Assembly (NCBI GenBank): GCA_043825615.1
Contig: JBDRRS010000003.1
Coordinates: forward strand, 125,379-189,378
Source: a bacterium
Lineage (GTDB): Bacteria; CG03
Length of the DNA: 64,000 nucleotides
Reading direction: 5' to 3'
This document shows positions 4,752-36,629 of the stretch, in pieces (within the stretch, counting starts at the first letter, position 1; the number at the start of each line of letters is the position of its first letter). The position numbers were made by a program, and so were the translations under genes. Below the pieces are notes generated by a model. That model was not told the DNA's origin, searched no databases, and was given only the letters and a program-made list of their open reading frames with translations.

Positions 4752-4753
4752 AT

Positions 4754-7528
4754 ATGGACGAGCAAAATCTTCAACAACTTGTTGAATCAGAAATAGGCCG
4801 CAAAACCATTTCTAAGATAGAAATACCGGAGTTTATATCCAGTAATTTAAAGCATGATTTTTGGTATTGGCAAAAAGAAGCTTTGCAGTATTTTGTTGCC
4901 TTTGATGCTCTGGAATATGAATATGAAAAGCCGCTAAACGAGCCAACGCATTTGATGTTTAATATGGCCACTGGTACCGGCAAAACTCTGCTTATGGCCG
5001 CTTTAATTATATATTACTACAAAAAAGGCTATAGATATTTCATTTTCTTTGTTAATCAAAACAATATCGTTGATAAAACTGAAAATAATTTTATCAATAA
5101 AAATCATACCAAGTATCTTTTTCACCAAAATATAGTTATTGACGATAAAACTATCAATATCCGTAAAGTAGAAACTTTTGACAATGCTAATGATATTCAA
5201 ATCAAGTTCACATCTATTCACAAGCTTCACAATGTTGTTTATTTGGCAAAAGAAAATGCGGTCACGCTGGAAGATTTACAAAAAAGAGATTTAGTAATGA
5301 TTGGCGATGAAGCTCATCACTTCAATGCTTCAACTATGAGAAATGGACAAACGGAAATGGATTTGCCAACCGAGCTAAAAGGAAATGCCAGCGAAAAAGA
5401 TGTTGAGAAAAGTTGGGAAAATACAGTGTTGAATAAAATTTTAAGAAAAGGCAAAAATAAACAAGATGTTGAAAATAGAAATGTTTTATTGGAATTTACT
5501 GCAACGATACCGAGAAATGCGGATGTTATAGAAAAATATCGCACTAAGACCATTTATAAATTTGAACTTGTAGATTTTTTAAACGCGGGATATACCAAAG
5601 AAATAAATCTCGTTTCTACTTCGCTCAAAAAGAAAGAAAAAATTTTACTTGCTTTGCTTTTTAACTGGTATAGGCATCAAATTGCTCTTAAAAATAATAT
5701 TGCCAATTTTAAGCCTGTTATTCTTTTTAGAAGTAAGTTTATTAAAGAATCAAAGAAAGATTATGAAGAATTTTTGTCGGTTGTTGATAATTTAAAACCT
5801 GCCGATTTTTATTTTTTAAAAAATATTGAAAATTCCATAAAACAAGAGCAATCCAGTGCGTTCAAGGTATATGAACAAGGCAAAAGTCGAGTGCGACAAA
5901 TGCTCCAATTTATCAAGTATAAAAAAATCAACAGTCGAGAAATTGTGAACTATATCAAAGACGAATTTACCGAAAGAAACTGTATTATAACTAACTCGAA
6001 AGACAACAAGGCAACTACTAAAGAGAAAACAACAGAATACCAAGAACAATTACTTAATAGTTTGGAGGATAGAAATAATCATATACGGGCTATTTTTACT
6101 GTTAAACGCCTAACGGAAGGGTGGGATGTTTTAAATCTTTTTGATATTGTTCGCCTTTATAACGGTAGGGATGAAGGCTACGAAAAAAGTACTGGGAAAA
6201 GAAAAGCTGGAGAGGCAACCGTTCAGGAAATACAGCTCATCGGGCGAGGTGTACGCTACTTTCCTTTTTTTTACAATGAACACGAGAAAAACAAGAGAAA
6301 ATTTGATAATGAATTAGAAAATCCACTTCGGGTGTTAGAGGAATTTTATTACCACAGCGACGACGATGTCCGCTATCTTGATGAGTTAAAGCGAGAACTT
6401 AAAAATAAAGGATTTATTCAAGATAATCGCGAGATAAAGAAATTTGCTCTGAAAGATGAATTTAAGCAAAACTATTTCTTTAAAGAAATAAAAGTTTGGA
6501 AAAATGAAAGAATAGATAATCCAGAAAAAAGAAAAAGAACTTTGGCGGAATTGGAAAAAGAATTTGTTTTTGAATATGAAACAAAAGAATTTGCATTGAA
6601 AGAACAGCAAATTGTTTTAGATAAAGAAAAAGATGAAATTTTAGCGGAAAGTTTACAAAAATATAAAAAAACTATCAGCGCAAAAGTTTCGGATTTTGAG
6701 AAGCATATTGTTTGGAAAGCAATTAATAAAAAAGCTACAAAGGATTTATCGCTTTTACGTTTTGATAACTTGCAAAAGGAGTTGAATCTAAATAGTGTTG
6801 ATGAAATTTTATCAGATCGTTTTATCGGCAATTTTAGGGTCAATATTATTGTAGCAAAAGAAAAACAGGGGCTTGATGATATAAGCAATGACGAAAAACT
6901 GGAGTTATTTTTAAAGTTTTTTGATGAATTTACAAGAAAACTCAAAGAAATAGCCAATCCGTATAAGGGAACTGAAAAATTTGAGCCATTTTCTTTTGAA
7001 GATTTATTTGGCGAGGAAAAGCCAAAGAGCGTGCTTATTGATCCTGAAAGTAAAAATCTTGAGGCTGAATTATTAAAAAATAGCTGGTATGTTCTAAATG
7101 GATTTAATGGAACAAGCGAAGAAAGAGAATTATTAGAATTTATGAAAAATAAAATCGGAAATCTACAAGAAAAATATAATGAAGTTTATTTACTACGGAA
7201 TGAAGAAGTATATAAAATTTACGATTTCGAACAAGGACGTGGATTTGAGCCGGATTTTTTGCTTTTTCTAAAAGGCAATAAAGGAAATTTATATTATCAA
7301 ATCTTTATTGAGCCAAAAGGAAGCCAATTTAAGGACAAGGATGGTATGTTTAAATATAGCAAAGAAGGCTGGAAAGAAGAATTTTTACAGAAAATTACTG
7401 ATAAATATGGCAATGGTAATTTATTGAAAGCTGAAAGTAAAGAATATAAATTGCTTGGATTGCCTTTATTTAATGAAAGAGAAAAACATACTTTCGAAGA
7501 AACATTCAACGAACAATTGTTTAACTAA
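4754..7528 (+). CDS. res: Type III restriction endonuclease Res subunit (SF2 helicase + PD-ExK nuclease)
   Basis: Walker A MATGTGKT, DEAH box (MIGDEAHHF), 924 aa; C-terminal PD...ExK-like motif (EPDF...QIFIEPKG); immediately downstream of mod. Confidence 0.85.
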   Translation: MDEQNLQQLVESEIGRKTISKIEIPEFISSNLKHDFWYWQKEALQYFVAFDALEYEYEKPLNEPTHLMFNMATGTGKTLLMAALIIYYYKKGYRYFIFFVNQNNIVDKTENNFINKNHTKYLFHQNIVIDDKTINIRKVETFDNANDIQIKFTSIHKLHNVVYLAKENAVTLEDLQKRDLVMIGDEAHHFNASTMRNGQTEMDLPTELKGNASEKDVEKSWENTVLNKILRKGKNKQDVENRNVLLEFTATIPRNADVIEKYRTKTIYKFELVDFLNAGYTKEINLVSTSLKKKEKILLALLFNWYRHQIALKNNIANFKPVILFRSKFIKESKKDYEEFLSVVDNLKPADFYFLKNIENSIKQEQSSAFKVYEQGKSRVRQMLQFIKYKKINSREIVNYIKDEFTERNCIITNSKDNKATTKEKTTEYQEQLLNSLEDRNNHIRAIFTVKRLTEGWDVLNLFDIVRLYNGRDEGYEKSTGKRKAGEATVQEIQLIGRGVRYFPFFYNEHEKNKRKFDNELENPLRVLEEFYYHSDDDVRYLDELKRELKNKGFIQDNREIKKFALKDEFKQNYFFKEIKVWKNERIDNPEKRKRTLAELEKEFVFEYETKEFALKEQQIVLDKEKDEILAESLQKYKKTISAKVSDFEKHIVWKAINKKATKDLSLLRFDNLQKELNLNSVDEILSDRFIGNFRVNIIVAKEKQGLDDISNDEKLELFLKFFDEFTRKLKEIANPYKGTEKFEPFSFEDLFGEEKPKSVLIDPESKNLEAELLKNSWYVLNGFNGTSEERELLEFMKNKIGNLQEKYNEVYLLRNEEVYKIYDFEQGRGFEPDFLLFLKGNKGNLYYQIFIEPKGSQFKDKDGMFKYSKEGWKEEFLQKITDKYGNGNLLKAESKEYKLLGLPLFNEREKHTFEETFNEQLFN

Positions 7529-23121: not shown

Positions 23122-23895
23122 TTAGAATGCCGCCCGGTAGATGATAGAAAGAGCTCTTTCTATTTTTGCGTCTTCCAAGGCTTTACCGTTTTCCTCTATT
23201 TCTGTCCTGGTAATGTTTTCGAAGTTCAGCATAAATTCCAGCCCTTCCGTAAATTGCAGAATGGCGCCCGCATTAAACCTGCATAAACCGTTCCCGCGTC
23301 CGAGGTTAATCCCTTCGGCGCAGAAACCGAATTTTGAGGGCTTGAAACTAAAGCCCGCAAAGGAACTGATTTTATCTCTGAAACTGTCGGGGTTTTCAGC
23401 AAGTACCTTGTTGTAATTCGCTCCGCCGGTCACAAAAAAATTCGGGAAGAAAAGTTCTTTGGTCATTACAAGAAAAAACCCTATAGGTTCTATCCGGTAT
23501 TTCTGCGTACTTGTACCGGTGCTGTCTATCCATTCATAACCCTGCCTGTCATATCCGAGCGATACTTTCGGAAAAGCGTAGTTGCCCCTGAAAATGTCCA
23601 TCTTCAAATAAAGATTCGGGTCCCTTCCCTTTGGCGTTTGCGAACCGATCAGCGAATCCACGTTCCATGAAAAACCCACATTAAAACCCTGCAGTACGCC
23701 GAAGACCGCCCTTGTGAGCATTCCGCCGCCCTTGTACATTCTGAAATTAACGTTATATTCGCCGTAGTTCATTCCCCCCGCCGTCGGGGTAAATATCAAT
23801 CTTTCCATGTTGTCCGCTTTCGCGGTTTCTTCCGCCGGCAGGGTTCCTGCCGTCAACACGCACGCCAGTATAAACAACAAAAGACCTTTTTTCAT
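23122..23895 (-). CDS. hypothetical outer-membrane beta-barrel protein (start moved to MKKGLLL)
   Basis: Signal peptide; C-terminal aromatic F; GGAGGTG RBS upstream of the internal ATG at 23895. Confidence 0.5.
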   Translation of the reverse strand: MKKGLLLFILACVLTAGTLPAEETAKADNMERLIFTPTAGGMNYGEYNVNFRMYKGGGMLTRAVFGVLQGFNVGFSWNVDSLIGSQTPKGRDPNLYLKMDIFRGNYAFPKVSLGYDRQGYEWIDSTGTSTQKYRIEPIGFFLVMTKELFFPNFFVTGGANYNKVLAENPDSFRDKISSFAGFSFKPSKFGFCAEGINLGRGNGLCRFNAGAILQFTEGLEFMLNFENITRTEIEENGKALEDAKIERALSIIYRAAF

Positions 23896-24013
23896 AAACA
23901 CCTCCTGAATTACCCTAATTTTATTAAAATATCCGGTCAAGGTCAAATTTTTTAAAAGATGGTTTTCTGCGGGATGTTAAAATACGGAAAAATTCGGCTC
24001 AAAAGGTGTTTCC

Positions 24014-25663
24014 CTATTTTTTTCTTTTTAATTTTTTAAGGATGCGCTCAATATCCGATTTCAATTTAGGAGAAATATTCGGGTTGCTGTGCACTTTTTC
24101 CAAAAAAGGAATTCCCTGCGTTATTTTAAATTTCTTTATGTAATATAGATAAAACCGCAAACGATAAGCTCTTTTTTTATCAAATAAATCTTTTTCATAC
24201 AATTTCGATTTTTCCTCCAGGAAAGCGTAATCTATTTGCTCGTAATGTTCTTTTGTTAACTTTAGTACCATTGCTTGTATTTTCCTTCCTATGTTTTTCT
24301 GCAAATTCGGGTATTCTAAAAAAGCAAATAGTTCGGGGAGCAATAACAACTTTTTTGAAGATATAAAATCCAGCACTATTTTCTGCGAGTTTTTATAACC
24401 GCGTTTGAACGGGATATTCATTACGGAAACTGTGTTTGAATCACTTTTGTCATATTTCAAATTTAACAGAAATTTGATTCGTTTTTCAAGATAATCATCA
24501 GCGTATTTGCTTATTTTTGAATCGCACAGATACATAAGGTATTCCATTGTTTTCATAACGGTTAAGTCGTTCAATATAGCAACTATTTTTTTACGGATAA
24601 TTACGGCATCGTAAGGGACAACCTGCAGGTTTCCAAGTACGTCCAGCAACACTGTTATGTGCCTGGTGCGTTCTGAAAACTCTAAATTATTTTTATCTAT
24701 TTTATCAACGATTTCAAATGCCTTAAGAGCCACGTCGAAATTTTTTGATTTTAGTAAATGATACAACCCCGGCAGACATTTCCTGCTTTTTATAATGTCA
24801 AAAACTTCAAGCAGGGTCTGTTCAATTTCAGGGGATTTATAATTATTTGCGTATTGGTTCAAATAACCGGCGTACTTCTCCCCGCCTAAAAATGCAACCA
24901 CCTTAATTATTTTCTGAATCACTTCTTCGTCCGAACTTGTTTTATACGCGTTCGCCGCCATATCCAAATAGTTGGTTTTATTGTTGTTCAGTATAAAATC
25001 CAGCGTCTTGAGTTTTTCTTCTTTGCTGCCGTATTTCAAGTTATACACCGTTTCTTTGTCGGAACCGCTCATTAGGGAGTTTCCATCGCTTTTAGAGTTG
25101 TAAGTATCTTCTATTACAACGGTTTCACCGCCTTCGAATGTGGTCCTAACAAGGGAAGAAACTAATTTATCCGTCAGATAATGAATCCTCGATTCAGAGG
25201 AAGTCGTCGCATGATTGCTGTATAAGATTTTACCTGTTTCCACATCTACCATGTTTACGGATACAACGAATTTATTCAGCAGTTTTCCGAATTTTCCGGT
25301 TACAATATACCGTATGTTTAATATTTTCCCGATTTTAACAGCGCATTCTACTTCCGTGCAAGCGGTTTGCTGGAAACCCTGCTCCGCCAGCACCTTATCA
25401 AGGTTGTTCCTGTCAACAACGTTAAAGCGCTTGCTTTTGACGATACCTTCTCTGAAAAATTCCGCTACGAATATGGAGTCGCTGGCAGATACGCCCTGAG
25501 AGCCGAAGTCCAGAACCGCTATATTATGGATTTTGTTCTTTATTGCAACCGCGCCGACGGTAAGAAACGCGAGCAATACTACTGCGGTGAAAACATTGTG
25601 TAACTTTCTCTTTATTTTTCCGGATTCTGCGCTAAATAAAAAAGACATTGCGAATATTCTCAT
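24014..25663 (-). CDS. CsgG/LpoB-like N-terminal domain protein with C-terminal alpha-helical repeats
   Basis: IAVLDFGSQGVS...VVDRNNLDKVLAEQGFQQ...VTGKFGKL pattern; AT-rich gene. Confidence 0.5.
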   Translation of the reverse strand: MRIFAMSFLFSAESGKIKRKLHNVFTAVVLLAFLTVGAVAIKNKIHNIAVLDFGSQGVSASDSIFVAEFFREGIVKSKRFNVVDRNNLDKVLAEQGFQQTACTEVECAVKIGKILNIRYIVTGKFGKLLNKFVVSVNMVDVETGKILYSNHATTSSESRIHYLTDKLVSSLVRTTFEGGETVVIEDTYNSKSDGNSLMSGSDKETVYNLKYGSKEEKLKTLDFILNNNKTNYLDMAANAYKTSSDEEVIQKIIKVVAFLGGEKYAGYLNQYANNYKSPEIEQTLLEVFDIIKSRKCLPGLYHLLKSKNFDVALKAFEIVDKIDKNNLEFSERTRHITVLLDVLGNLQVVPYDAVIIRKKIVAILNDLTVMKTMEYLMYLCDSKISKYADDYLEKRIKFLLNLKYDKSDSNTVSVMNIPFKRGYKNSQKIVLDFISSKKLLLLPELFAFLEYPNLQKNIGRKIQAMVLKLTKEHYEQIDYAFLEEKSKLYEKDLFDKKRAYRLRFYLYYIKKFKITQGIPFLEKVHSNPNISPKLKSDIERILKKLKRKK

Positions 25664-27862: not shown

Positions 27863-29149
27863 TTACTTGGAAAAATGTTTCTGACTTGCAGCCAGCCCGT
27901 CTTCAAGCGACTCTTCCATCGTTGAGTACTTCCAGCCGCCGAACCTTCCGGTTGATATTATTTTGTGTTTTTTGAGGAACCCGAAAATTTTGGGCAGGAC
28001 CTTTTCCCTTTCATTATCGTAAATGACATAAGCGAACGGGATGTTCAGGTCTTTTTGGACGAGGATGCTTTTCTCCGTGAGGCGCAGAAATTCAAGAATT
28101 TTTTTTACCGTCATTTCCGCCTTCCCGTCCCGGAATGATTCCTCTACGTAAATGTTCGAGAACCGCTCCGGCACGCTGCCGAAATTGGACAGGAAACCGA
28201 TTCTGTAAAACGGGAATTTCTTTTCGGGAAAATAAATCCAGTGCCCCATTTCCGAAAAATTCTTTTTTAAAACGAGGTTCGTGTTTTTCACGCCCGCCCA
28301 CTTTAATTTCTTTGAAAGTTTCCGCATTTCCGGACAGCCGTTCAGACGGTTCAGGAGAACGGGCAGAGGGATTGTGGATATGATTTCGTCATAGGATATT
28401 TTGCCGTTTCCTGTAAATATTATTTTTTTATTCAGGTCGATTGATTTTACTCCCGCTCCGAAAATTATGTTTTTCCCTTTTGCCAGCGGCTTTATGATTT
28501 CGCTGATTCCTCCTCTTTCCGGGTAATAAAACGAGGCGTTGTAACCTCCCGTCTGCTCCGGGTTGCGCCGCGCGGCTCCTTTGAGTATCAGACCTTTCGA
28601 AGGCGGCGGCACGAATCTCCCCATCCACAGGGTGCTCATTTTTCTCAAGTCGTATTTCCAGAGTTTCCTGTTATACGGCTCAAAAAAGAGGCGGAACATT
28701 CTTTCACCGAAGGAATTCTTAGCCCAGTCGTAAAAACTGCCGCGGGCCGGCTCTCCCCTGCCGGCAAGGAAGTCCTTTACGCATTTGGTTTTTTCCTTTT
28801 GCGGCAGGTAGGCGAGATGATACTGGAAGGGATAGGGGACAGACCCGTCCAGCAGATGTATTGACGCGGAGCGCGAATGTTTTTTCAGAGGGACTTTCAG
28901 TTCCGACGTTATAAAACGCTTCCAATCCTTATCCTTCGCAGGGTGGCGTGATGTCGTCTGCTTTTTATTTTTGAAATGCAGGAGGTGTCCGGTGTAATCA
29001 AAGAAAAAACCGTTTTTCTTCTCGGTTCGGCAGAGCCCACCAGCTTCGCTTTCTTTTTCAAGGACGAGCGGTTTTATTTTTCTTTTTACAAGGAAATGCG
29101 CTGCGGAAAGGCCGGTGAGCCCCGCCCCGAGAATCACGATTTTTTTCAC
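27863..29149 (-). CDS. NAD(P)/FAD-dependent oxidoreductase (UDP-galactopyranose mutase / amine-oxidase-like)
   Basis: N-terminal Rossmann VILGAGLTGLSAA...E...GG. Confidence 0.65.
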   Translation of the reverse strand: MKKIVILGAGLTGLSAAHFLVKRKIKPLVLEKESEAGGLCRTEKKNGFFFDYTGHLLHFKNKKQTTSRHPAKDKDWKRFITSELKVPLKKHSRSASIHLLDGSVPYPFQYHLAYLPQKEKTKCVKDFLAGRGEPARGSFYDWAKNSFGERMFRLFFEPYNRKLWKYDLRKMSTLWMGRFVPPPSKGLILKGAARRNPEQTGGYNASFYYPERGGISEIIKPLAKGKNIIFGAGVKSIDLNKKIIFTGNGKISYDEIISTIPLPVLLNRLNGCPEMRKLSKKLKWAGVKNTNLVLKKNFSEMGHWIYFPEKKFPFYRIGFLSNFGSVPERFSNIYVEESFRDGKAEMTVKKILEFLRLTEKSILVQKDLNIPFAYVIYDNEREKVLPKIFGFLKKHKIISTGRFGGWKYSTMEESLEDGLAASQKHFSK

Positions 29150-32025
29150 CAGTTCACTCCCAGCCGGAAATACGATTCATATTCCTTATCCCGCAGAGTC
29201 CTTGCCCTGTCAAAAGAAATAAAGAGAGGATAACTCTGAAAAAGGAGCGCGTTCAGCCGGAAACCGAACCCGAAGGAGTGCCTGAGATTTTCTTTCCCCC
29301 ACTCGCTGCTTTTTGAGAAAACCTCTCCCGCATCGTAAAAAATAACCCCTTTCAAACTCTTGAAATACATCGGAGGTATCAGCCACCAGACATTATAGTC
29401 AATATCAGGAAAAACGTAAAACCTGTATTCGGCGGAGCCGAGAGCGAGCCGGCTCTCGTCGGGCACGCCGCTTAAGCCACGGACCATGTTCCACCGCGTG
29501 ATGTCGAAAAGTTCCGGCGTTTCGCCCCACGAGAAAAGACCGAGAAGCCGCAGGGCAAAAATGTGGTTCGGGAAAACAATAGGGGCAAAAAACTGTTCTT
29601 CAAAATAAACCGATTTGTACTGGAAATCGCCGCCGAGACGTTTCCCCGACTGCGCAAAACTCAGGTTGGCTCTCCTCCCTTTTACGATGTCCATAAACCT
29701 GTAAATGCTGAAATCCCTGACGAGAGAGAGGACGTAAGCGTTTTCAAACGTTTCGTAATAGTCGTTTTCCTCCCAGTCAAGCAGGTCTTTGTTTCTTTCC
29801 CGCGCGAGCATCAGTTCCAGCCGGTTGTTTTTGTCGAGGGGTCTTGTGAAAAAAAGGCCGAAAGCGTCTTTTCTGCTGTCCTCTTTCATCACCTCGGCCG
29901 CGTCTTCGTCATCTCCGGGGATGCTCCATCTTGTTTCTCTCGAGCCGCCCGTAAAAAAACCGGCGTTCGTTTTCCATTTCTTGCACAGGTAGGAAAAAGA
30001 ATAATTCATGTCTCTCGTCGCCGACAGCCACTGGAGATAGAGAGAGGCATTGTGGTTGCCGGTGATATCGGACGCCTGCATGTAATTCAAAACATAGAAT
30101 TCCACGTCTCCCTCGGAAAAAGCGAACATCGCGAGAGGGTAAACCAGGTCAAAAGACCACCGTGTTTTGTATTTTCTGAAGTCATAGGGCAGGACTTCAG
30201 ACGGTTCCGGCGGTTTCTCTTTTTCCTTTTTCATTTCGATTCCCGCAGTAAAATTTTCATCCTGCGTTTCAGGGGCATGTCTCCGCAAAGCAGGTTTTAT
30301 ATCCTCGATGTCAATTCCTCTTTTGAGAAAGGCATCGTCAATGACTGACGATGAACCGGCGTGCGCTGAATCCGCCGTTGCCGGAGGTGAATCAAAAACA
30401 TAAATCTGCCGGGAACCTTCCCACTGGATTACGGCGGCAATTTCATTGTTTTTTGAAACCGCGAAATCCGTAACGCCTGTTTTAATGAACGTCATATTTT
30501 CCGCCTCGTCGAAATTTGAGGAGGAATATCTTATTCTGAAAATATCGCTGAAAGAATTTCTGTCGCTTATGAAATACAGGTGTTTCCCGAGAAGATGCGG
30601 AGTTTTTTCGTCAAAGGACGTGTCTGTAAGCCATGTTTTTTTGAAAGATGAAAGCGATATTTCTCTCAGGTCAAGTTCCTGCCTGCGTTCGCAGGAATAG
30701 ATGATTTTCTGTTCGCCGGGAATTACCGTAAAGGAGTGTTCAAAGTCGTCGTCGTCCGTAATGTTTGAGATTTTTCCTTCGTTCCAGAGGAATATGTCGC
30801 TCCTGCAAGACAGGTCCCCAGCCATCAGGAGAGAACCGTCGTTAAGGGCTTCAATCTGTCTTACCTCGGTGAAAGGGATGGGGATTTCGAGAAACTTTTT
30901 ATTTTCATAAAAGACCAGATGGTGTTTTCCGTCCTTCCACGCGGTAAAAATGAGCCGGTTCCCGTAATAAGCGAAAGAGTCCCCTACATTGTCAAAATAA
31001 TTCTTTTTTCTTTTTAAAAGACGTTTCTGCTTTCCGCTTTTCACGTCCTTTATCACAATTTCGTCGTAGCCGTATCCGTCGGAAACGAACGCAATTTTAC
31101 CGTCAAAGAAAAAAGGGCTTCTCGCCCGGTAGAACCGGAAATCCGGGGAAATCATCCGCCCGAGTTTTTCCGGAGCGTTTCTTTCATCGGTCGCTTTTTT
31201 ATACTGTCCGTCCAGATATTCTTCGAACAAAGCGTCGAATCTGCGCGAACCGGTATCAAACGTTTTTCTCATCGCGATGTTCTGTTCCCATATCTGCGGG
31301 AATTGTTTTACGAGTTCGAGAACTTTATTTTTGCCGTATTTCCGCGCGATAAAAATCATCATTTTCTGCGACTGCTTATAAGCAAGGTAGACGCGGTAGC
31401 CCTCAAGGTGAGAGAAGGAAAGCAGGTCCTCCGAAGGGACGAGCAAGCCGTGCAGGTAGATATCCCGGAGAGCTGCGGCGTCTTCCCCGTCCCAGATGTC
31501 GGATGAAAATTCGGCAAGGCCCTCCTGTATCCAGAGAGGAATGGGATATATCATAAGGCGCACGAGTGAAATCGACCGCCAGAAACCGCCGTAGAAAATT
31601 TCAAAACTCGCGACGTGCGTGTATTCGTGCTGGAGGATGTGCCTCATTTCCCGGGGCGAAGTATAGTAAGGCAGCACAAACCTGTTCTTAAACGCCTCCG
31701 CAAAACCGCCTGTCCCCCACGACACGGGGGCTATCCTGTTCGAATGAAAGTCAGGGTGGTCTTCAAAGAAAAAAAAGAACGGTTTTTTCCGCGGGCTTAC
31801 GTTGAGAAATTCAAACGTTTCGTCGTGGGTTTTTTCAAGCATTTGCGATATCAAAGCCGTCTTATGAGAAATCTGCGGGTAGTGGAAAATCGTAAAATGT
31901 TCCGTTTCGCAGGTGCTCCATTCGAAGTTCTGCGTATATGTCTGATTTTTTCCGAATTCGAGACCGGAAACCGCCGACGATATTAAAAGTGCAAAAATGC
32001 CGTAAAGTGAAACTTTACATTTCAC
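29146..32025 (-). CDS. large secreted protein: N-terminal HExxH metallopeptidase-like region, TolB-like beta-propeller, C-terminal Omp85/BamA-like beta-barrel
   Basis: Signal peptide; HEYTHV zinc-binding motif; C-terminal FYDAGEVF...FGFGFRLN; 4-nt overlap with upstream oxidoreductase gene. Confidence 0.5.
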   Translation of the reverse strand: MKCKVSLYGIFALLISSAVSGLEFGKNQTYTQNFEWSTCETEHFTIFHYPQISHKTALISQMLEKTHDETFEFLNVSPRKKPFFFFFEDHPDFHSNRIAPVSWGTGGFAEAFKNRFVLPYYTSPREMRHILQHEYTHVASFEIFYGGFWRSISLVRLMIYPIPLWIQEGLAEFSSDIWDGEDAAALRDIYLHGLLVPSEDLLSFSHLEGYRVYLAYKQSQKMMIFIARKYGKNKVLELVKQFPQIWEQNIAMRKTFDTGSRRFDALFEEYLDGQYKKATDERNAPEKLGRMISPDFRFYRARSPFFFDGKIAFVSDGYGYDEIVIKDVKSGKQKRLLKRKKNYFDNVGDSFAYYGNRLIFTAWKDGKHHLVFYENKKFLEIPIPFTEVRQIEALNDGSLLMAGDLSCRSDIFLWNEGKISNITDDDDFEHSFTVIPGEQKIIYSCERRQELDLREISLSSFKKTWLTDTSFDEKTPHLLGKHLYFISDRNSFSDIFRIRYSSSNFDEAENMTFIKTGVTDFAVSKNNEIAAVIQWEGSRQIYVFDSPPATADSAHAGSSSVIDDAFLKRGIDIEDIKPALRRHAPETQDENFTAGIEMKKEKEKPPEPSEVLPYDFRKYKTRWSFDLVYPLAMFAFSEGDVEFYVLNYMQASDITGNHNASLYLQWLSATRDMNYSFSYLCKKWKTNAGFFTGGSRETRWSIPGDDEDAAEVMKEDSRKDAFGLFFTRPLDKNNRLELMLARERNKDLLDWEENDYYETFENAYVLSLVRDFSIYRFMDIVKGRRANLSFAQSGKRLGGDFQYKSVYFEEQFFAPIVFPNHIFALRLLGLFSWGETPELFDITRWNMVRGLSGVPDESRLALGSAEYRFYVFPDIDYNVWWLIPPMYFKSLKGVIFYDAGEVFSKSSEWGKENLRHSFGFGFRLNALLFQSYPLFISFDRARTLRDKEYESYFRLGVNW

Positions 32026-32027
32026 AA

Positions 32028-33659
32028 TTATTCTTTCTTGAGAATGTCTCCGATGCTGAAACCCGCGGATTCCGAAGAATAATATTGCTGCATCGTTTCG
32101 TTTTCTTTCTGTTTTTCCAGTTCCTTTATGCTGAGTTCTACCATCCTTAAGTTTTCGTTTACCTTTACGACAACCGCTTCAATTTTCTGACCTTCGGAAA
32201 AGGCGGAAAGGTTTTCGGTTTTTCCCGCCTCAATCTGCGAAATGTGGATAAAACCCGTTATTCCGTCCGGAAGGTCCATTATAAGTTTATCCGTATCAAC
32301 TTTGGCGACCGTGCCGGTTACGTTCCGCCCTGAAACGTAATTTTTAAAAGGGCTGTCTTCTATCTGTTTCAGGCCCAGATAAATTTTTTGTTCCTCAACG
32401 CTGATGCTCAGAATTTTTGCGGAGACCTGCTGGTCGACACACAAGATGTCCGCGGGATGGGAAATTCTTTCTTTCCATGAAAAATCCTTCAGCAGAATAA
32501 AACCCTCTGCGGCATCCGGAAGTTCCACAACGGCGCCGTTCTTCGTAAGATGGGTAACCCTGCCTTCAATTGTTTCCCCGACGGAATGTTTCGCGGTAAA
32601 GCTCTGCCATGGATTTTCCTGCGTGTTCTTCAGGCTCAGGGATATTCTTTTGTTTTCATGGTCGCTCTTTAACACCATTACTTCTATTGTCTGGCCTTCT
32701 TTCAGGACCTCGGCTGTCTTGAGATTTCTTTTCCAGGACAGTTCGCTTATGTGCAGGAGCCCCTCAAGACCCGGCTCAAGTTCAACAAAAGCTCCGTACT
32801 CTACAACGCCTCTTACAACGCCGTTGTGTATGCTGCCGACAGGGTATTTCTTTTCGACTTTTTCCCATGGGTGAGATTTTGTTTCTCTTAAACTCAGGGA
32901 AACCCTGTTTTCCGTTTTGTTCAGTTTTGTAATCTTGACTTCTATTTCCTGCCCGATTTTCAATTCGTCGGAAACCCTTTCCGTCCTGCCCCACGAGATG
33001 TCCTTTATGTGAAGAAGGCCTTCAAATCCTCCTATGTCCACAAATGCGCCGAATTTGGTAATGCCTTTTACGACGCCTTTTTTTATTTCGCCCTCGCGCA
33101 CCTCGGACCAGAATTTTTCCTGAAGCTTTTTATATTCCGGTTCGACCACGTCCCTCCACGAGACGACAATATCGTTTTTAATTCTGTTGAATTTCTTTAT
33201 TTTCACGGGGACGTCCTGCCCTATGGTTTCTTTTATTTTTCTGACGGGAGGATAACCTATCTGCGAGTTCGGCATAAATGCCTCAATCCCGTTGATTTTG
33301 GCTTTTACGCCGCCTTTAATCTGCTCAACAATTCTGGCGGTGACGGTTTCCCCTTTTTCAAACGCCTGCTCAATGTCGTATATCGCCTTGTTCTTCTGCG
33401 CTCGACGGCACGACAGCGTCGGGGAACCGCCGGTTCCGGACATATCAATTATGTATACGTCTATGTCCTGCCCGACGGAAATATCGCTCACCTCAGATAT
33501 TTCCGAAAGGGGAATTACGCCTTCGGCTTTTCCCCCGATATCCACCAAAACGCCGTCCGGACTGGAAACGTCAAGCACTTTTCCCTTGACGATTTTCCCC
33601 GCCGCAAGTTTTGGAATGGCATTCACAACTTCATCCATCAGATTCTTTGACTCACTCAT
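32028..33659 (-). CDS. rpsA: 30S ribosomal protein S1
   Basis: Multiple S1 domains (G..V.G.V......G..V..G....G..H.SE). Confidence 0.9.
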   Translation of the reverse strand: MSESKNLMDEVVNAIPKLAAGKIVKGKVLDVSSPDGVLVDIGGKAEGVIPLSEISEVSDISVGQDIDVYIIDMSGTGGSPTLSCRRAQKNKAIYDIEQAFEKGETVTARIVEQIKGGVKAKINGIEAFMPNSQIGYPPVRKIKETIGQDVPVKIKKFNRIKNDIVVSWRDVVEPEYKKLQEKFWSEVREGEIKKGVVKGITKFGAFVDIGGFEGLLHIKDISWGRTERVSDELKIGQEIEVKITKLNKTENRVSLSLRETKSHPWEKVEKKYPVGSIHNGVVRGVVEYGAFVELEPGLEGLLHISELSWKRNLKTAEVLKEGQTIEVMVLKSDHENKRISLSLKNTQENPWQSFTAKHSVGETIEGRVTHLTKNGAVVELPDAAEGFILLKDFSWKERISHPADILCVDQQVSAKILSISVEEQKIYLGLKQIEDSPFKNYVSGRNVTGTVAKVDTDKLIMDLPDGITGFIHISQIEAGKTENLSAFSEGQKIEAVVVKVNENLRMVELSIKELEKQKENETMQQYYSSESAGFSIGDILKKE

Positions 33660-35096: not shown

Positions 35097-35764
35097 TTTT
35101 TCCCGCTTTTTTCTGCAACCTCTTTTATAATGATGTCCGCAACTTCTTCAATGCTTTTGTTCGTTGAATCTATCACCGTCGCCCCCGCCGGAATTTTCAG
35201 CGGGCAGAGCCCCCTTGTTTTGTCAATGTTGTCTCTTTTGTTTATGTCGGCTATGATGCGCTCTAAAATCTGCGGGTTTCCTTTTTCCTTTAATTCCAGA
35301 AATCTTCTTTTCGCTCGTTCGCTAATGCTGGCGTCGAGATAAAACTTAAATCGGGCGCGAGGGAACACGACCGTTCCGATGTCGCGGCCTTCCATGACCA
35401 CGCCCGATTTTTCCGCAAATTGCCGCTGCATGTCGCGGAGAATCCGGCGGACTTCCCCGCTTGCCGCCGTTATGGAAGTGCGGTTCGTAACGGTTCTCGA
35501 CCTGATTTTGCGGGAGACGTCCTCCCCGTCCAGTAATATTTTCTGTTTATCGAACCGTATTCTGGAACCTGCGGCGATTCCGCACATTTTTTTCGGATCC
35601 GTCATGTCGATTTTATTTTTCAGCGCCTTGTATGTTACCGCCCTGTACATTGCGCCTGTGTCTATATAGGTTAAGCCGAGTTTCTCTGCCACGATGCGGG
35701 CTATCGTGCTCTTCCCCGCCCCCGCCGGCCCGTCTATTGTAATGGGGTCAGGTCTTGCAATCAT
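35093..35764 (-). CDS. cmk: cytidylate kinase (annotated start lies inside REP-like repeat; true start uncertain)
   Basis: ITIDGPAGAGKST P-loop typical of Cmk; first codons ATGATTGCAAGACCTGACCCC coincide with REP core. Confidence 0.85.
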   Translation of the reverse strand: MIARPDPITIDGPAGAGKSTIARIVAEKLGLTYIDTGAMYRAVTYKALKNKIDMTDPKKMCGIAAGSRIRFDKQKILLDGEDVSRKIRSRTVTNRTSITAASGEVRRILRDMQRQFAEKSGVVMEGRDIGTVVFPRARFKFYLDASISERAKRRFLELKEKGNPQILERIIADINKRDNIDKTRGLCPLKIPAGATVIDSTNKSIEEVADIIIKEVAEKSGKK

Positions 35765-36629
35765 ACATTTTCTCTATGCGCCGTAATCTGCGGCTCACTG
35801 TAGCATAATGCACGCCAAGATATTCCGCTATTTCTTTCATACAGTACCTGTATTTTTCATAGGCTTCCACTATGGCATTATCACTGTTCTTTCTCAATAT
35901 CACCCTCAGCGGTTTACGCTTTGGTTCCTGCTGAATCCTCGGTATTTCTTTAATCCTTTCTTTTTTCGATATTTTTTTGATAAATTTATCATCACCGTAA
36001 TATATCTGCCCTTTTAATTTTTCCCATACCGTTTTACCCACTCCCTCTTTAACAAACTTATAATATTTTTCTACCCCTTTTTTTTGATTATTGTCGAACT
36101 GCTTTAATATCCAATCTGTCGTCAGCCAATCCGGGCACTCTTCCAATCCCAGCATTGCCCGATACGCGCTCCATTTCCAATCTTCAACCCTTTTTACTAT
36201 CCCTGCTCGCACTGAATTCAACACTATATATCTGCTTAGTTCCAGTAAATGCTCATTTTTCTGCACAACTATTGCTTTATATCTGCCCTGAAACAAATGC
36301 CCAACACGGCTATGCATCTTGTTAAACCGCTGTGTATACACTCCATTTAACTGCCGCATTCCTCCTGATAAATTACCTTCAGGCGTCTCTACCAATAAAT
36401 GATAATGATTGGTCATCAAATTATATGAATGGCATAACCATTTATAACGCTTTATCGTTTTTTCAAGTATCCGCAGGAACTCTTTACGGTCACTGTCATT
36501 GTAATATATACTCCGCTTTGCGTTACCTCGTGCTGTAATATGGTATATTGCCCCGGGATATTCTATTCTTAGCGGCCTAGCCATATTTCAACTTACCTTT
36601 TATTTTGTTGCATTGCAAGACCTGACCCC
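35744..36629 (-). mobile_element. REP-flanked RAYT unit inserted between aroA and cmk
   Basis: GGGGTCAGGTCTTGCAAT at 35744-35761 and its reverse complement at 36612-36629 bracket the RAYT gene. Confidence 0.7.
35748..36584 (-). CDS. REP-associated tyrosine transposase (IS200-like Y1 HUH transposase family) with C-terminal HTH
   Basis: GAIYHITARGN, HuH motif NHYHLLV, GHLFQGRYK, ELSRYIVLNSVRAG; C-terminal HTH-like IAEYLGVHYATVSRRL. Confidence 0.85.
   Translation of the reverse strand: MARPLRIEYPGAIYHITARGNAKRSIYYNDSDRKEFLRILEKTIKRYKWLCHSYNLMTNHYHLLVETPEGNLSGGMRQLNGVYTQRFNKMHSRVGHLFQGRYKAIVVQKNEHLLELSRYIVLNSVRAGIVKRVEDWKWSAYRAMLGLEECPDWLTTDWILKQFDNNQKKGVEKYYKFVKEGVGKTVWEKLKGQIYYGDDKFIKKISKKERIKEIPRIQQEPKRKPLRVILRKNSDNAIVEAYEKYRYCMKEIAEYLGVHYATVSRRLRRIEKMYDCKT

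What the first reader, a model, noticed from the sequence alone, without database searches (positions are those of the whole stretch)
29146..32025. 959-aa secreted protein combining HExxH metallopeptidase-like, beta-propeller and Omp85-like barrel regions
The protein has a signal peptide, an HEYTHV zinc-binding-like motif, TolB/WD40-like propeller repeats and a C-terminus resembling Omp85/BamA barrels (FYDAGEVF...FGFGFRLN). I do not recognise this fusion as a described family. It overlaps the upstream FAD-oxidoreductase gene by 4 nt, suggesting co-expression.
Basis: partly seen in the sequence, partly recalled or inferred. Interest (0 to 1): 0.45.

Follow-up and report, generated by a model that had tools for sequence, protein, structure and literature searches.

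The report
Outer-membrane barrel carrying a zinc peptidase
This gene encodes a bacterial outer-membrane barrel protein fused to a propeller and a zinc protease; the family was catalogued in 2014 but never studied experimentally, and its gene neighbours in other bacteria suggest it helps build or police the outer membrane.

Summary
Window 29146-32025 is one intact 959-aa ORF, on the minus strand. It encodes a signal peptide, a gluzincin (HExxH...E...Y) peptidase domain, a six-bladed TolB-like propeller, a ~70-residue disordered linker with no POTRA domain, and a 16-strand BamA/TamA-type Omp85 barrel with both lid-lock motifs. AlphaFold2 gives pLDDT 88 and pTM 0.88.

The claim that the fusion is undescribed is wrong. 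It matches the 'WD40-like Omp85' subfamily of Heinz & Lithgow (2014), whose supplementary table already lists TolB and aminopeptidase/collagenase hits. No experimental study was found. The family is large, with about 886 clusters at 50% identity (E<=1e-10).

The FAD-oxidoreductase gene lies downstream, not upstream. The 4-nt overlap is real, but that neighbour is kept only in the query's own clade.

Two context results are new here:
- In the query clade and a ~30%-identity clade, the gene always follows aroA-cmk-plsC-ispH-rpsA.
- In 27 of 35 distant loci, it sits directly after a POTRA-Omp85 gene and tamB.

Best reading: an outer-membrane-anchored, periplasm-facing zinc peptidase working in envelope protein quality control or biogenesis. 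The topology, substrate and role are inferred, not shown. It is a new member of a known, uncharacterised kind.

The parts
29146..32025 (-). Whole gene: 959-aa peptidase-propeller-Omp85 protein (GTG start at 32025, TGA stop at 29146-29148)
   Evidence: ORF list and translation. Full-length homologs at 92% identity (P0001) down to ~21%.
31960..32025 (-). Signal peptide, residues 1-22 (Sec type I by inspection; no lipobox)
   Evidence: Sequence MKCKVSLYGIFALLISSAVSG|LE. AF2 pLDDT is below 50 for residues 1-22. Homolog N-termini are variable up to this point and conserved from F24 onward.
31138..31959 (-). Gluzincin (clan MA) zinc-peptidase domain, residues 23-296. It starts with the conserved FGKN(Q/K) motif.
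31615..31629 (-). HEYTH zinc-binding/catalytic motif (H133, E134, H137)
   Evidence: Invariant in 110 aligned homologs. Aligns to the HExxH of M1 APA and M9 Vibrio collagenase.
31522..31533 (-). W165-I-Q-E168, within the 'PLWxxEGxAE' helix; E168 is the predicted third zinc ligand
   Evidence: P163, W165, E168 and G169 are invariant. Aligns to 'LWLNEGFA' of M1 and 'WWSEGIAEY' of M9.
31378..31380 (-). Y216, predicted transition-state-stabilising tyrosine
   Evidence: Invariant. Aligns with Y549 of Vibrio collagenase VhaC; PDB 9l5o is the Y549A mutant of that enzyme.
30385..31137 (-). Six-bladed TolB-like (PD40) beta-propeller, residues 297-547; PD40 sequence motifs are eroded in this clade
30172..30384 (-). 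Low-complexity, mostly disordered linker, residues 548-618; no POTRA domain
   Evidence: pLDDT 47-56 for most of the segment. No POTRA hit in Pfam for the query or for homologs.
29149..30171 (-). 16-strand Omp85 (BamA/TamA-type) beta-barrel, residues 619-959, ending in the aromatic beta-signal ...YFRLGVNW
29476..29484 (-). V848-R849-G850, the loop-6 'VRG' lid-lock motif
   Evidence: R849 is 99% and G850 97% conserved in 114 sequences. The motif lies in the loop between strands 11 and 12. The motif is defined in PMC11358297.
29326..29340 (-). F896-Y-D898-A-G900, the FxDxG motif on strand 13
   Evidence: 93-96% conserved. Lies on strand 886-903.
32028..33659 (-). Upstream gene rpsA (ribosomal protein S1); its stop codon lies 2 nt before the target's start. 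It is the last gene of the aroA-cmk-plsC-ispH-rpsA cluster (up to 37883).
   Evidence: Pfam S1 x6. Junction sequence. The same order is seen in all 23 loci of the query clade and the ~30% clade that have upstream flank.
27863..29149 (-). Downstream FAD/NAD-binding amine-oxidase-like gene; its GTG start overlaps the target's TGA stop (GTGA)
   Evidence: Pfam Amino_oxidase and NAD_binding_8. No NCBIfam model is passed. Junction sequence. This neighbour is conserved only in the >=50% clade.

Best explanation
**Shown.** The gene encodes a member of the POTRA-less 'WD40-like' Omp85 subfamily. From N- to C-terminus it has:
- a Sec signal peptide
- a gluzincin zinc-peptidase domain with an intact HExxH + Glu + Tyr catalytic set
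- a six-bladed TolB-like propeller
- a flexible ~70-residue linker
- a 16-strand BamA/TamA-type barrel with the loop-6 VRG and strand-13 FxDxG lid-lock motifs and a C-terminal aromatic beta-signal

**Inferred.**
- After Sec export, BAM inserts the barrel into the outer membrane. The peptidase-propeller module stays on the periplasmic side, as all N-terminal Omp85 domains studied so far do, including the PlpD patatin domain.
- The high pTM suggests the module docks under the barrel.
- The propeller acts as a substrate-binding or gating platform, as in tricorn, DPP-IV and acylaminoacyl peptidases.
- It hands unfolded periplasmic or outer-membrane polypeptides to the zinc site for cleavage.
- The protein would therefore be a membrane-tethered quality-control or processing protease of the cell envelope. 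It would be functionally analogous to BepA at BAM, though unrelated in sequence.

**Context behind the inference.**
- In this lineage the gene is translationally coupled to the housekeeping cmk-plsC-ispH-rpsA operon, which suggests constitutive expression.
- In most distant relatives it is the third gene of a POTRA-Omp85 / tamB operon, which links the family to outer-membrane biogenesis.
For: **Architecture and folds**
- AF2 gives pLDDT 88.4 and pTM 0.88.
- Foldseek agrees.
- The family profile hits TolB in PDB at 2e-33 and BamA at 1e-10.

**Catalytic competence**
- H133, E134, H137, E168 and Y216 are invariant in 110 sequences spanning 21-92% identity, as are F93, E110, R115, P163, W165 and G169.
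- These residues align to the zinc ligands and the Tyr of M1 and M9 enzymes.
- The peptidase domain is the best-conserved part: about 30% identity to distant members against about 23% overall.

**Barrel**
- The VRG and FxDxG motifs are 93-99% conserved.
- The barrel resembles BamA/TamA more than the secretion pore FhaC.

**Periplasmic topology by analogy**
- PlpD's N-terminal enzyme domain is exclusively periplasmic (PMC11116518).

**Link to envelope biogenesis**
- In 27 of 35 distant loci, tamB (PF04357) ends between -44 and about +70 nt of the gene's start in most cases.
- In 24 of these loci a POTRA-Omp85 gene sits upstream of tamB.
- This synteny is kept down to about 30% TamB identity.

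**Housekeeping expression**
- rpsA's TAA stop is followed by 2 nt and then the GTG start.
- The same gene order occurs in 23 loci across two deep clades.
Against: - No experiment exists on any member of the family, so topology, activity and substrates are all unshown.
- The query's own locus has no tamA or tamB within 64 kb. The TAM link is therefore transferred from relatives at 22-30% identity.
I could not check that the active site faces the propeller, or that the module docks on the periplasmic face of the barrel.
- The tamB synteny could partly reflect shared ancestry among related phyla rather than function.
- A 70-residue flexible linker is also what a surface-displayed passenger domain would need.
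Confidence: 0.5

Rival explanations
1. **Surface-displayed protease (type V-like self-export).** The Omp85 barrel translocates its own N-terminal peptidase-propeller passenger through the flexible linker to the cell surface. There it degrades environmental proteins for nutrition or attacks other cells.
For: - An N-terminal enzyme, a long disordered linker and a C-terminal barrel resemble autotransporter logic.
- The closest peptidase folds are secreted collagenases.
- Heinz & Lithgow raised this option for enzyme-Omp85 fusions.
- An M6 secreted-type peptidase is often encoded nearby in distant loci.
Against: - The prototype for this idea, PlpD, was shown to keep its enzyme domain in the periplasm (PMC11116518).
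- A folded 250-residue propeller plus a 270-residue peptidase is a poor passenger for a 16-strand barrel.
- The gene sits in housekeeping or tamAB operons, not in nutrient-acquisition loci.
Confidence: 0.15
2. **Insertase or scaffold ('BamA-BamB fusion').** The barrel itself catalyses outer-membrane protein insertion, or anchors TamB. The propeller is a BamB-like docking platform. The peptidase domain mainly binds substrate, and proteolysis is secondary or absent.
For: - This is Heinz & Lithgow's suggestion.
- The barrel is BamA-like and keeps the conserved lid-lock motifs.
- The gene lies directly after tamB in 27 loci. TamB is known to pair with Omp85 barrels (PMC4494059).
Against: - There is no POTRA domain. 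POTRA domains are what TamA and BamA use to engage TamB and their substrates.
- A separate POTRA-Omp85 gene is already present in the same operons.
- The entire catalytic set, including the general-base Glu and the Tyr, is invariant across the family. That argues for retained catalysis.
Confidence: 0.2
3. **TolB paralogue.** The protein acts in the Tol-Pal system or in peptidoglycan-linked envelope tethering, and the peptidase trims peptidoglycan-associated proteins or stem peptides.
For: - JGI annotates relatives as 'Tol biopolymer transport system component'.
Against: - NCBIfam TolB scores 30 bits against a cutoff of 343.
- The TolB N-terminal domain is absent.
- None of the neighbouring genes identified in the loci inspected was a tol or pal gene.
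- The PD40 motifs are eroded in the query clade.
Confidence: 0.05

Closest known systems
WD40-like Omp85 subfamily (Heinz & Lithgow 2014, Front Microbiol 5:370)
   Same: - A C-terminal Omp85 barrel without POTRA.
- An N-terminal TolB-like PD40 propeller.
- An aminopeptidase/collagenase-like region ahead of the propeller.
- Their Phyre2 templates (2w8b, 4k3b/4c00, 1z5h, 3qnf, 4ar1) are the structures recovered here.
   Different: - The query's clade (Elusimicrobia-type MAGs) is a divergent branch. PD40 motifs are eroded and no Pfam threshold is passed by the query itself.
- The gene is embedded in the rpsA operon.
- Direct alignment to their listed accessions could not be done.
PlpD / patatin-like Omp85 (type Vd)
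   Same: An enzyme domain is fused N-terminally to a 16-strand Omp85 barrel. PlpD's enzyme domain is periplasmic (PMC11116518), which provides the topological analogy.
   Different: - PlpD has a patatin lipase domain and one POTRA domain.
- Here there is a zinc peptidase plus a propeller and no POTRA.
BamA / TamA
   Same: - A 16-strand barrel with the L6 VRG and strand-13 FxDxG motifs and a C-terminal beta-signal.
- Distant members are encoded next to tamB.
   Different: - No POTRA domains.
- NCBIfam BamA and TamA models are not passed by the query.
- The protein carries an enzyme module.
M9 bacterial collagenase peptidase domain (ColG/ColH/ColT, Vibrio VhaC) and M1 aminopeptidases
   Same: - The gluzincin fold.
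- HExxH, a downstream Glu ligand in an 'EGxAEY' helix, and a catalytic Tyr, all aligned.
- A 'YGG' segment after the HExxH, as in Vibrio collagenase.
   Different: - No M9 activator domain and no collagen-binding or PKD domains.
- No M1 GxMEN motif, no M1 N-terminal or C-terminal domains, and HExxH-X30-E spacing instead of X18.
- Sequence similarity is marginal (E 1e-3 to 2e-2).
BepA (M48 protease with TPR domain, at BAM)
   Same: The proposed role is the same: a periplasmic zinc protease with a protein-binding repeat domain, acting at an Omp85 machine on stalled outer-membrane proteins. This is a functional analogy only.
   Different: - A different peptidase family (M48) and TPR repeats instead of a propeller.
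- BepA is a soluble or peripheral protein, not fused to a barrel.
- No homology was shown.
Tricorn protease / DPP-IV / acylaminoacyl peptidases
   Same: A PD40-type propeller is combined with a peptidase. Pfam Tricorn_N, Tricorn_2nd and DPPIV_N hit the propellers of homologs.
   Different: Those enzymes are serine peptidases and soluble. Here the catalytic domain is a zinc gluzincin and the protein is membrane-anchored.

Membership tests
Omp85 superfamily (BamA/TamA-type barrel) | C-terminal 16-stranded beta-barrel | tested here: met
   - 16 long strands between residues 623 and 955.
- Foldseek gives E 3.6e-10.
Omp85 superfamily (BamA/TamA-type barrel) | Loop-6 (V/I/L/M)RG motif and strand-13 FxDxG lid-lock | tested here: met
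   V848-R849-G850 and F896-x-D898-x-G900 are present, and 93-99% conserved in 114 homologs.
Omp85 superfamily (BamA/TamA-type barrel) | Passes the Pfam PF01103 gathering score | tested here: inconclusive
   - The query gives no PF01103 hit at E<=1, and NCBIfam Omp85_fam scores 30 against a cutoff of 200.
- The 92%-identical P0001 scores 30.8 bits (threshold 24) and P0018 scores 82.6 bits.
- The family profile hits BamA in PDB at E 1e-10.
Omp85 superfamily (BamA/TamA-type barrel) | [quoted passage not shown] | tested here: not met
   - No POTRA hit in the query or in six homologs.
- Residues 548-618 are disordered in AF2.
- This absence is itself the hallmark of the WD40-like subfamily.
WD40-like Omp85 subfamily (Heinz & Lithgow 2014) | TolB-like PD40 propeller N-terminal to a POTRA-less Omp85 barrel | tested here: met
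- The family profile gives E 2e-33.
- Homologs carry PF07676 together with PF01103, matching their Table S2 architectures.
WD40-like Omp85 subfamily (Heinz & Lithgow 2014) | Aminopeptidase/collagenase-like region ahead of the propeller (their Table S3) | tested here: met
   Foldseek hits 4ar1, 3qnf and 1z1w (tricorn-interacting factor F3). Their table lists 4ar1, 3qnf, 1z5h (also F3) and 4kxd.
WD40-like Omp85 subfamily (Heinz & Lithgow 2014) | Direct sequence homology to listed members (e.g. H1XQ58, D0MEQ5, B0VIY2) | not tested
   Those UniProt sequences were not obtainable with the tools. The afdb50 library was unavailable.
Clan MA(E) gluzincin / Pfam Peptidase_MA_2 | HExxH plus a downstream Glu as third zinc ligand | tested here: met
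   H133, E134, H137 and E168 are invariant in 110 sequences. They align to the ligands of M1 APA and M9 collagenase.
Clan MA(E) gluzincin / Pfam Peptidase_MA_2 | Thermolysin-like alpha/beta fold | tested here: met
   - The domain model has pLDDT 90.
- Foldseek gives TM 0.54-0.61 to M9 peptidase domains.
Clan MA(E) gluzincin / Pfam Peptidase_MA_2 | Passes the PF13485 gathering score | tested here: inconclusive
   The query scores 26.4 bits against 32.4. Homologs P0018 (66), P0120 (54.6) and P0014 (39.5) pass.
Clan MA(E) gluzincin / Pfam Peptidase_MA_2 | Zinc-dependent peptidase activity | not testable with these tools
   Needs biochemistry.
M9 collagenase | N-terminal activator domain paired with the peptidase domain; collagen-recruitment domains | tested here: not met
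   - Only about 20 residues precede the peptidase domain.
- No PKD or CBD domains.
- Peptidase_M9 is only a weak hit, and only in some homologs.
M1 aminopeptidase | GxMEN exopeptidase motif and HExxH-X18-E spacing | tested here: not met
   The spacing is X30 (H137 to E168). No GxMEN motif is present; the conserved segment is GGF(A/S/T)E.
TolB (Tol-Pal) | TolB N-terminal alpha/beta domain plus propeller; passes TIGR02800 | tested here: not met
   TIGR02800 scores 30 bits against a cutoff of 343 and covers only propeller blades.
PlpD / type Vd | Patatin domain + POTRA + Omp85 barrel | tested here: not met
   No patatin or POTRA hit.

The most novel reading that the evidence does not exclude
The family may be a dedicated third component of a TAM-like envelope machine: a zinc protease built onto its own Omp85 barrel. 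It would proofread or clear polypeptides (or process lipoproteins) handled by TamB and its POTRA-Omp85 partner. That would make it a covalently membrane-anchored counterpart of BepA, and it would have gone unnoticed because TAM has been studied in Proteobacteria and Bacteroidota, where it is not in the operon. In the query's lineage the gene would have been recruited into the rpsA housekeeping operon.
Probability: 0.25. Interest if true: 0.7.

Novelty: new member of a known kind. Interest (0 to 1): 0.4.

Why it matters
Omp85 proteins are the core of outer-membrane biogenesis. Apart from BamA, TamA, TpsB and PlpD, their subfamilies are unexplored, and the PlpD work showed that 'odd' Omp85 fusions can overturn assumptions. 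This family is large: about 886 clusters at 50% identity, spread across Elusimicrobia, Fibrobacterota, Krumholzibacteriota, Zixibacteria, WOR-3, Bacteroidota and others.

Three results make a concrete hypothesis testable in culturable carriers, namely an outer-membrane-tethered quality-control protease linked to TAM:
- The zinc-protease catalytic set is invariant across the family.
- The barrel keeps BamA-like lid-lock motifs.
- In many phyla the gene is the third gene of a POTRA-Omp85 / tamB operon.

For genome annotation, the protein should be labelled a peptidase-propeller Omp85 protein. The labels currently used in databases, 'hypothetical', 'TolB component' and 'BamA/TamA', are each incomplete or wrong.

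Tried and rejected
1. Translating the plus strand of 29146-32025 gave a frame full of stops. The gene is on the minus strand.
2. A sequence-only PDB search with the query found nothing. Profiles and structure models were needed.
3. The search for related loci with the 110-sequence alignment failed because no stretch was conserved enough. A 15-sequence alignment worked.
4. The afdb50 fold library was unavailable. I therefore could not tie the model directly to the UniProt accessions listed by Heinz & Lithgow.
5. The listing of cluster members and a second profile search did not surface members from cultured organisms.
6. I suspected 9ccg, the best barrel hit by profile, might be a PlpD-like protein. 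It is Fusobacterium nucleatum BamA, and a literature search for the code was uninformative.
7. A functional link to the FAD oxidoreductase was considered and set aside, because that neighbour is confined to the >=50% clade.
8. TolB, M1 and M9 membership were each rejected on defining features (see the membership table).
9. No tRNA genes were found in the window.
10. Literature searches for any experimental work on this architecture, or for its presence in tam operons, found none.

Full report
**1. The observation**

The coordinates 29146-32025 delimit a single 959-codon ORF with a GTG start, but it lies on the minus strand. The plus-strand translation is full of stops.
- an N-terminal hydrophobic signal-like segment (MKCKVSLYGIFALLISSAVSG)
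- HEYTH at residues 133-137
- FYDAGEVF at 895-902
- FGFGFRLN at 917-924

On its own the query barely registers in family libraries:
- Peptidase_MA_2 scores 26.4 bits, against a gathering score of 32.4.
- PD40 gives E 0.065.
- NCBIfam TolB and Omp85_fam each score about 30 bits, far below their cutoffs.
- A sequence-only search of PDB finds nothing.

**2. Homologs confirm the architecture**

A database search found 185 relatives. They fall into four groups:
- one at 92% identity (P0001, a MAG)
- a group at 51-57%, mostly labelled Elusimicrobia
- a group at about 30%
- many full-length proteins of 930-1,140 aa at 21-29%

The more typical relatives pass all three Pfam thresholds. P0018, for example, scores Omp85 82.6, PD40 77.4 and Peptidase_MA_2 66 bits.

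In an alignment of 110 full-length sequences, fourteen residues are invariant: F93, E110, R115, H133, E134, H137, P163, W165, E168, G169, Y216, D626, D771 and G783. R849/G850 and F896/D898/G900 are 93-99% conserved.

An exhaustive search of 1.84 billion cluster representatives gave 1,501 hits at E<=1e-3, 886 at E<=1e-10 and 151 at E<=1e-30. Most of the best 150 are 900-1,100 aa long, and most match from the N-terminal peptidase domain onward. This is a large, real family, not a chance ORF or a one-off fusion.

**3. Structure**

AlphaFold2 with this alignment gave a confident model, with mean pLDDT 88.4 and pTM 0.88. Its parts are:

| Residues | Feature |
|---|---|
| 1-22 | Disordered signal peptide |
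| ~24-290 | Alpha/beta peptidase domain |
| ~298-546 | About 23 strands in six blades (propeller) |
| ~548-618 | Mostly low confidence, no POTRA-like fold |
| 623-955 | Sixteen long strands (barrel) |

The pTM is high for a three-domain protein, which suggests the domains pack in a defined way. I could not inspect the coordinates.

No solved chain matches two of the domains at once. Foldseek agrees for the barrel.

V848-R849-G850 lies in the loop between strands 11 and 12, and FxDxG lies on strand 13. These are the positions of the Omp85 'lid-lock' motifs as described in PMC11358297. The protein ends in ...YFRLGVNW, an aromatic C-terminus typical of the beta-signal.

**4. The peptidase domain**

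A separate model of residues 23-296 has pLDDT 90. By Foldseek it most resembles:
- the peptidase domains of clostridial collagenases ColT, ColH and ColG (E 3e-5 to 4e-4, TM 0.54-0.61)
- then M1 aminopeptidases: IRAP, ERAP1, LTA4H, tricorn-interacting factor F3 and aminopeptidase N

A profile of this domain alone aligns weakly to PDB sequences (E 1e-3 to 2e-2), but the motifs line up exactly:
- With M1 glutamyl aminopeptidase: 'HELVH...LWLNEGFASF'.
- With Vibrio collagenase VhaC: 'HEYVH..LYGGFG..WWSEGIAEYVS..RIYRWGY'.

In these alignments the query's H133/E134/H137 match the HExxH and E168 matches the third zinc ligand. The invariant Y216 matches VhaC Y549, and PDB 9l5o is the Y549A mutant of that enzyme.

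The domain is a gluzincin with a complete catalytic set. It is neither an M9 nor an M1 member. It lacks the M9 activator domain, lacks the M1 GxMEN motif, and has HExxH-X30-E spacing.

It is also the best-conserved part of the protein. Identity to distant members is about 30% for this domain against about 23% overall. In contrast, the PD40 sequence motifs have eroded in the query's clade, although the fold is still predicted with high confidence.

**5. What is already known**

Heinz & Lithgow (2014, PMC4104836) divided the Omp85/TpsB superfamily into ten bacterial subfamilies. One is 'WD40-like'. Its members have N-terminal TolB-like PD40 repeats and lack POTRA.

Their Table S3 has a column 'best aminopeptidase hit' for these proteins. 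It lists 1z5h (F3), 4kxd, 4fgm, 3qnf (ERAP1) and 4ar1 (ColH), alongside 2w8b/2ivz (TolB) and 4k3b/4c00 (BamA/TamA). These are largely the structures recovered here; 4ar1 and 3qnf are identical codes, and tricorn-interacting factor F3 appears as a different entry (1z1w here, 1z5h there).

A 2024 paper paraphrases the subfamily as carrying 'divergent WD40 and peptidase domains' (PMC11358297). The PlpD paper notes that the WD40-like and metalloprotease Omp85 subfamilies 'have not been well characterized' (PMC11116518).

Heinz & Lithgow's 'Metallo' subfamily is a different thing, since it carries PF00149. I found no experimental work on this architecture.

The family is catalogued but functionally unknown. 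I could not align the query directly to their accessions, because afdb50 was unavailable. Membership rests on matching architecture and templates.

**6. Genomic context in the window**

The gene is transcribed leftward. Immediately upstream is rpsA (32028-33659). Its TAA stop is followed by 2 nt and then the target's GTG start. Before rpsA come ispH, plsC, cmk, an IS200-like transposase ORF, aroA and a prephenate-dehydrogenase-like gene.

Downstream, the TGA stop overlaps the GTG start of an amine-oxidase-type FAD/NAD-binding protein (GTGA). That protein passes no NCBIfam model. So the '4-nt overlap' is correct, but the FAD gene is downstream.

**7. Context in relatives**

I fetched 62 loci and located the neighbours by tblastn.

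- **rpsA-linked clades.** All 23 loci from the >=50% clade and the ~30% clade that have upstream flank show aroA-cmk-plsC-ispH-rpsA followed by the target. The FAD gene follows only in the >=50% clade.
- **Distant members.** These loci, at 22-30% identity, come from MAGs labelled Fibrobacteraceae, Krumholzibacteriota and unclassified bacteria. Clustering their neighbour ORFs revealed a different and striking pattern.

In 27 of these 35 loci, a ~1,283-aa TamB gene lies immediately upstream of the target on the same strand. Pfam TamB (PF04357) scores 112-127 bits. The gap between the tamB stop and the target start is mostly between -44 and about +70 nt.

In 24 of them, a ~565-aa POTRA-plus-Omp85 gene precedes tamB. 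It scores Omp85 176 bits and POTRA 47 bits. Its best NCBIfam match is BamA, below cutoff, with TamL and TamA weaker.

The order is kept even where TamB identity falls to about 30%. A uvrD-like helicase gene, and in about a dozen loci an M6 peptidase gene, follow the target.

No tamA or tamB homolog occurs in the window or in the rpsA-type loci.

The TAM evolution paper (PMC4494059) and the TamL paper (PMC12045153) do not mention a propeller or peptidase Omp85 in tam operons. No paper in the searchable library combines these terms.

**8. Mechanism**

*Shown:*
- the domain anatomy
- the intact and invariant catalytic set
- the BamA/TamA-type barrel with lid-lock motifs
- the absence of POTRA
- the two operon contexts

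*Inferred:*
- The barrel N-terminus of Omp85 proteins is periplasmic, and the one enzyme-Omp85 fusion tested (PlpD) keeps its enzyme in the periplasm. The peptidase-propeller module most likely stays periplasmic, tethered under the barrel.
- By analogy with propeller-gated peptidases, the propeller would bind or filter unfolded polypeptides for the zinc site.
- The association with tamB and a POTRA-Omp85 in many phyla, and with a constitutive housekeeping operon here, points to a role in envelope protein quality control or processing. That role would resemble BepA's at BAM.

I put this at about 0.5.

*Rivals:*
- Surface display by self-export, about 0.15. The PlpD precedent, the lid-locked BamA-like barrel and the operon contexts argue against it.
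- A BamA-BamB-like insertase or TamB anchor in which catalysis is secondary, about 0.2. The missing POTRA, the separate POTRA-Omp85 in the same operons and the invariant catalytic residues argue against it.
- A TolB-like role, about 0.05.

**9. Novelty and verdict**

It belongs to a subfamily catalogued in 2014, so it is a new and divergent member of a known but uncharacterised kind.

What this analysis adds:
- residue-level evidence that the peptidase is catalytically intact and M9/M1-like
- confirmation that the barrel keeps the Omp85 lid-lock motifs
- an estimate of the family's size
- two conserved operon contexts, of which the POTRA-Omp85/tamB/peptidase-Omp85 arrangement appears unreported and gives a testable functional hypothesis

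Interest is moderate, at 0.4. It would rise to about 0.7 if the TAM-linked quality-control role were demonstrated.

Noticed in passing
L028-L062 (e.g. L040:364-5924, L032:299-5849); not in the window: In 27 of 35 distant family loci the gene is immediately preceded on the same strand by tamB (~1,283 aa, PF04357). In 24 of them a ~565-aa POTRA-Omp85 gene lies before tamB. Gaps between tamB and the target are mostly -44 to +70 nt, and the synteny holds down to about 30% TamB identity. This arrangement is not mentioned in the TAM papers consulted.
   Followed up: yes
L028-L058, downstream of the target (e.g. L043:9170-12937): A uvrD/pcrA-like helicase gene follows the target in most tamB-linked loci. 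An M6 (immune inhibitor A-type) metallopeptidase gene follows in about a dozen of them. It is unclear whether this is functional or just inherited synteny.
   Followed up: partly
window 35748-36584 (-): A 278-aa IS200-like Y1 transposase ORF (Pfam Y1_Tnp 54.7 bits, with a C-terminal HTH) sits between cmk and aroA inside the conserved operon. In the 92%-identical relative L001, aroA and cmk are adjacent (35-nt gap), so this looks like a recent insertion in the window's genome.
   Followed up: partly
window 31948-31959 (-), residues 23-26 and onward (EFGKNQ...W36): A near-invariant FGKN(K/Q)V...W motif lies directly after the signal peptide (F24, G25, K26, N27 and W36 are each >=90% conserved). 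Its pLDDT is higher in the full-length model (75) than in the domain-only model (54), which hints that it contacts the propeller or the barrel. Its role is unknown.
   Followed up: no
window 30385-31137 (-): In the query's >=50% clade the propeller has lost recognisable PD40 sequence motifs. PD40 gives E 0.065 here against 120 bits in the ~30% relative P0014. AF2 still predicts a six-bladed propeller at pLDDT above 90. The peptidase and barrel motifs stay invariant, so the propeller is the fast-evolving part.
   Followed up: partly
window 61460-63490 (-): A 676-aa protein with FlgD-Ig and type IX secretion C-terminal sorting domains (CHU_C / Por_Secre_tail). This suggests the organism has a T9SS-type secretion route.
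   Followed up: no
window 2754-7528 (+): A type III restriction-modification pair: an N6_N4 methylase with the TypeIII_RM_meth domain (665 aa) followed by a ResIII helicase-type subunit (924 aa).
   Followed up: no
window 23122-25663 (-): Two envelope-looking genes lie a few kb downstream. One is a 549-aa protein with a CsgG/LpoB-like N-terminal region. The other is a 274-aa signal-peptide protein with no Pfam hit that ends in ...AAF, so it may be a small outer-membrane beta-barrel.
   Followed up: no
L014-L025 (record titles): The ~30%-identity clade comes from MAGs titled 'Clostridia bacterium', yet these encode an Omp85 barrel protein in an Elusimicrobia-like operon. The taxonomic labels of these MAGs look doubtful, or the organisms are diderm.
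   Followed up: no
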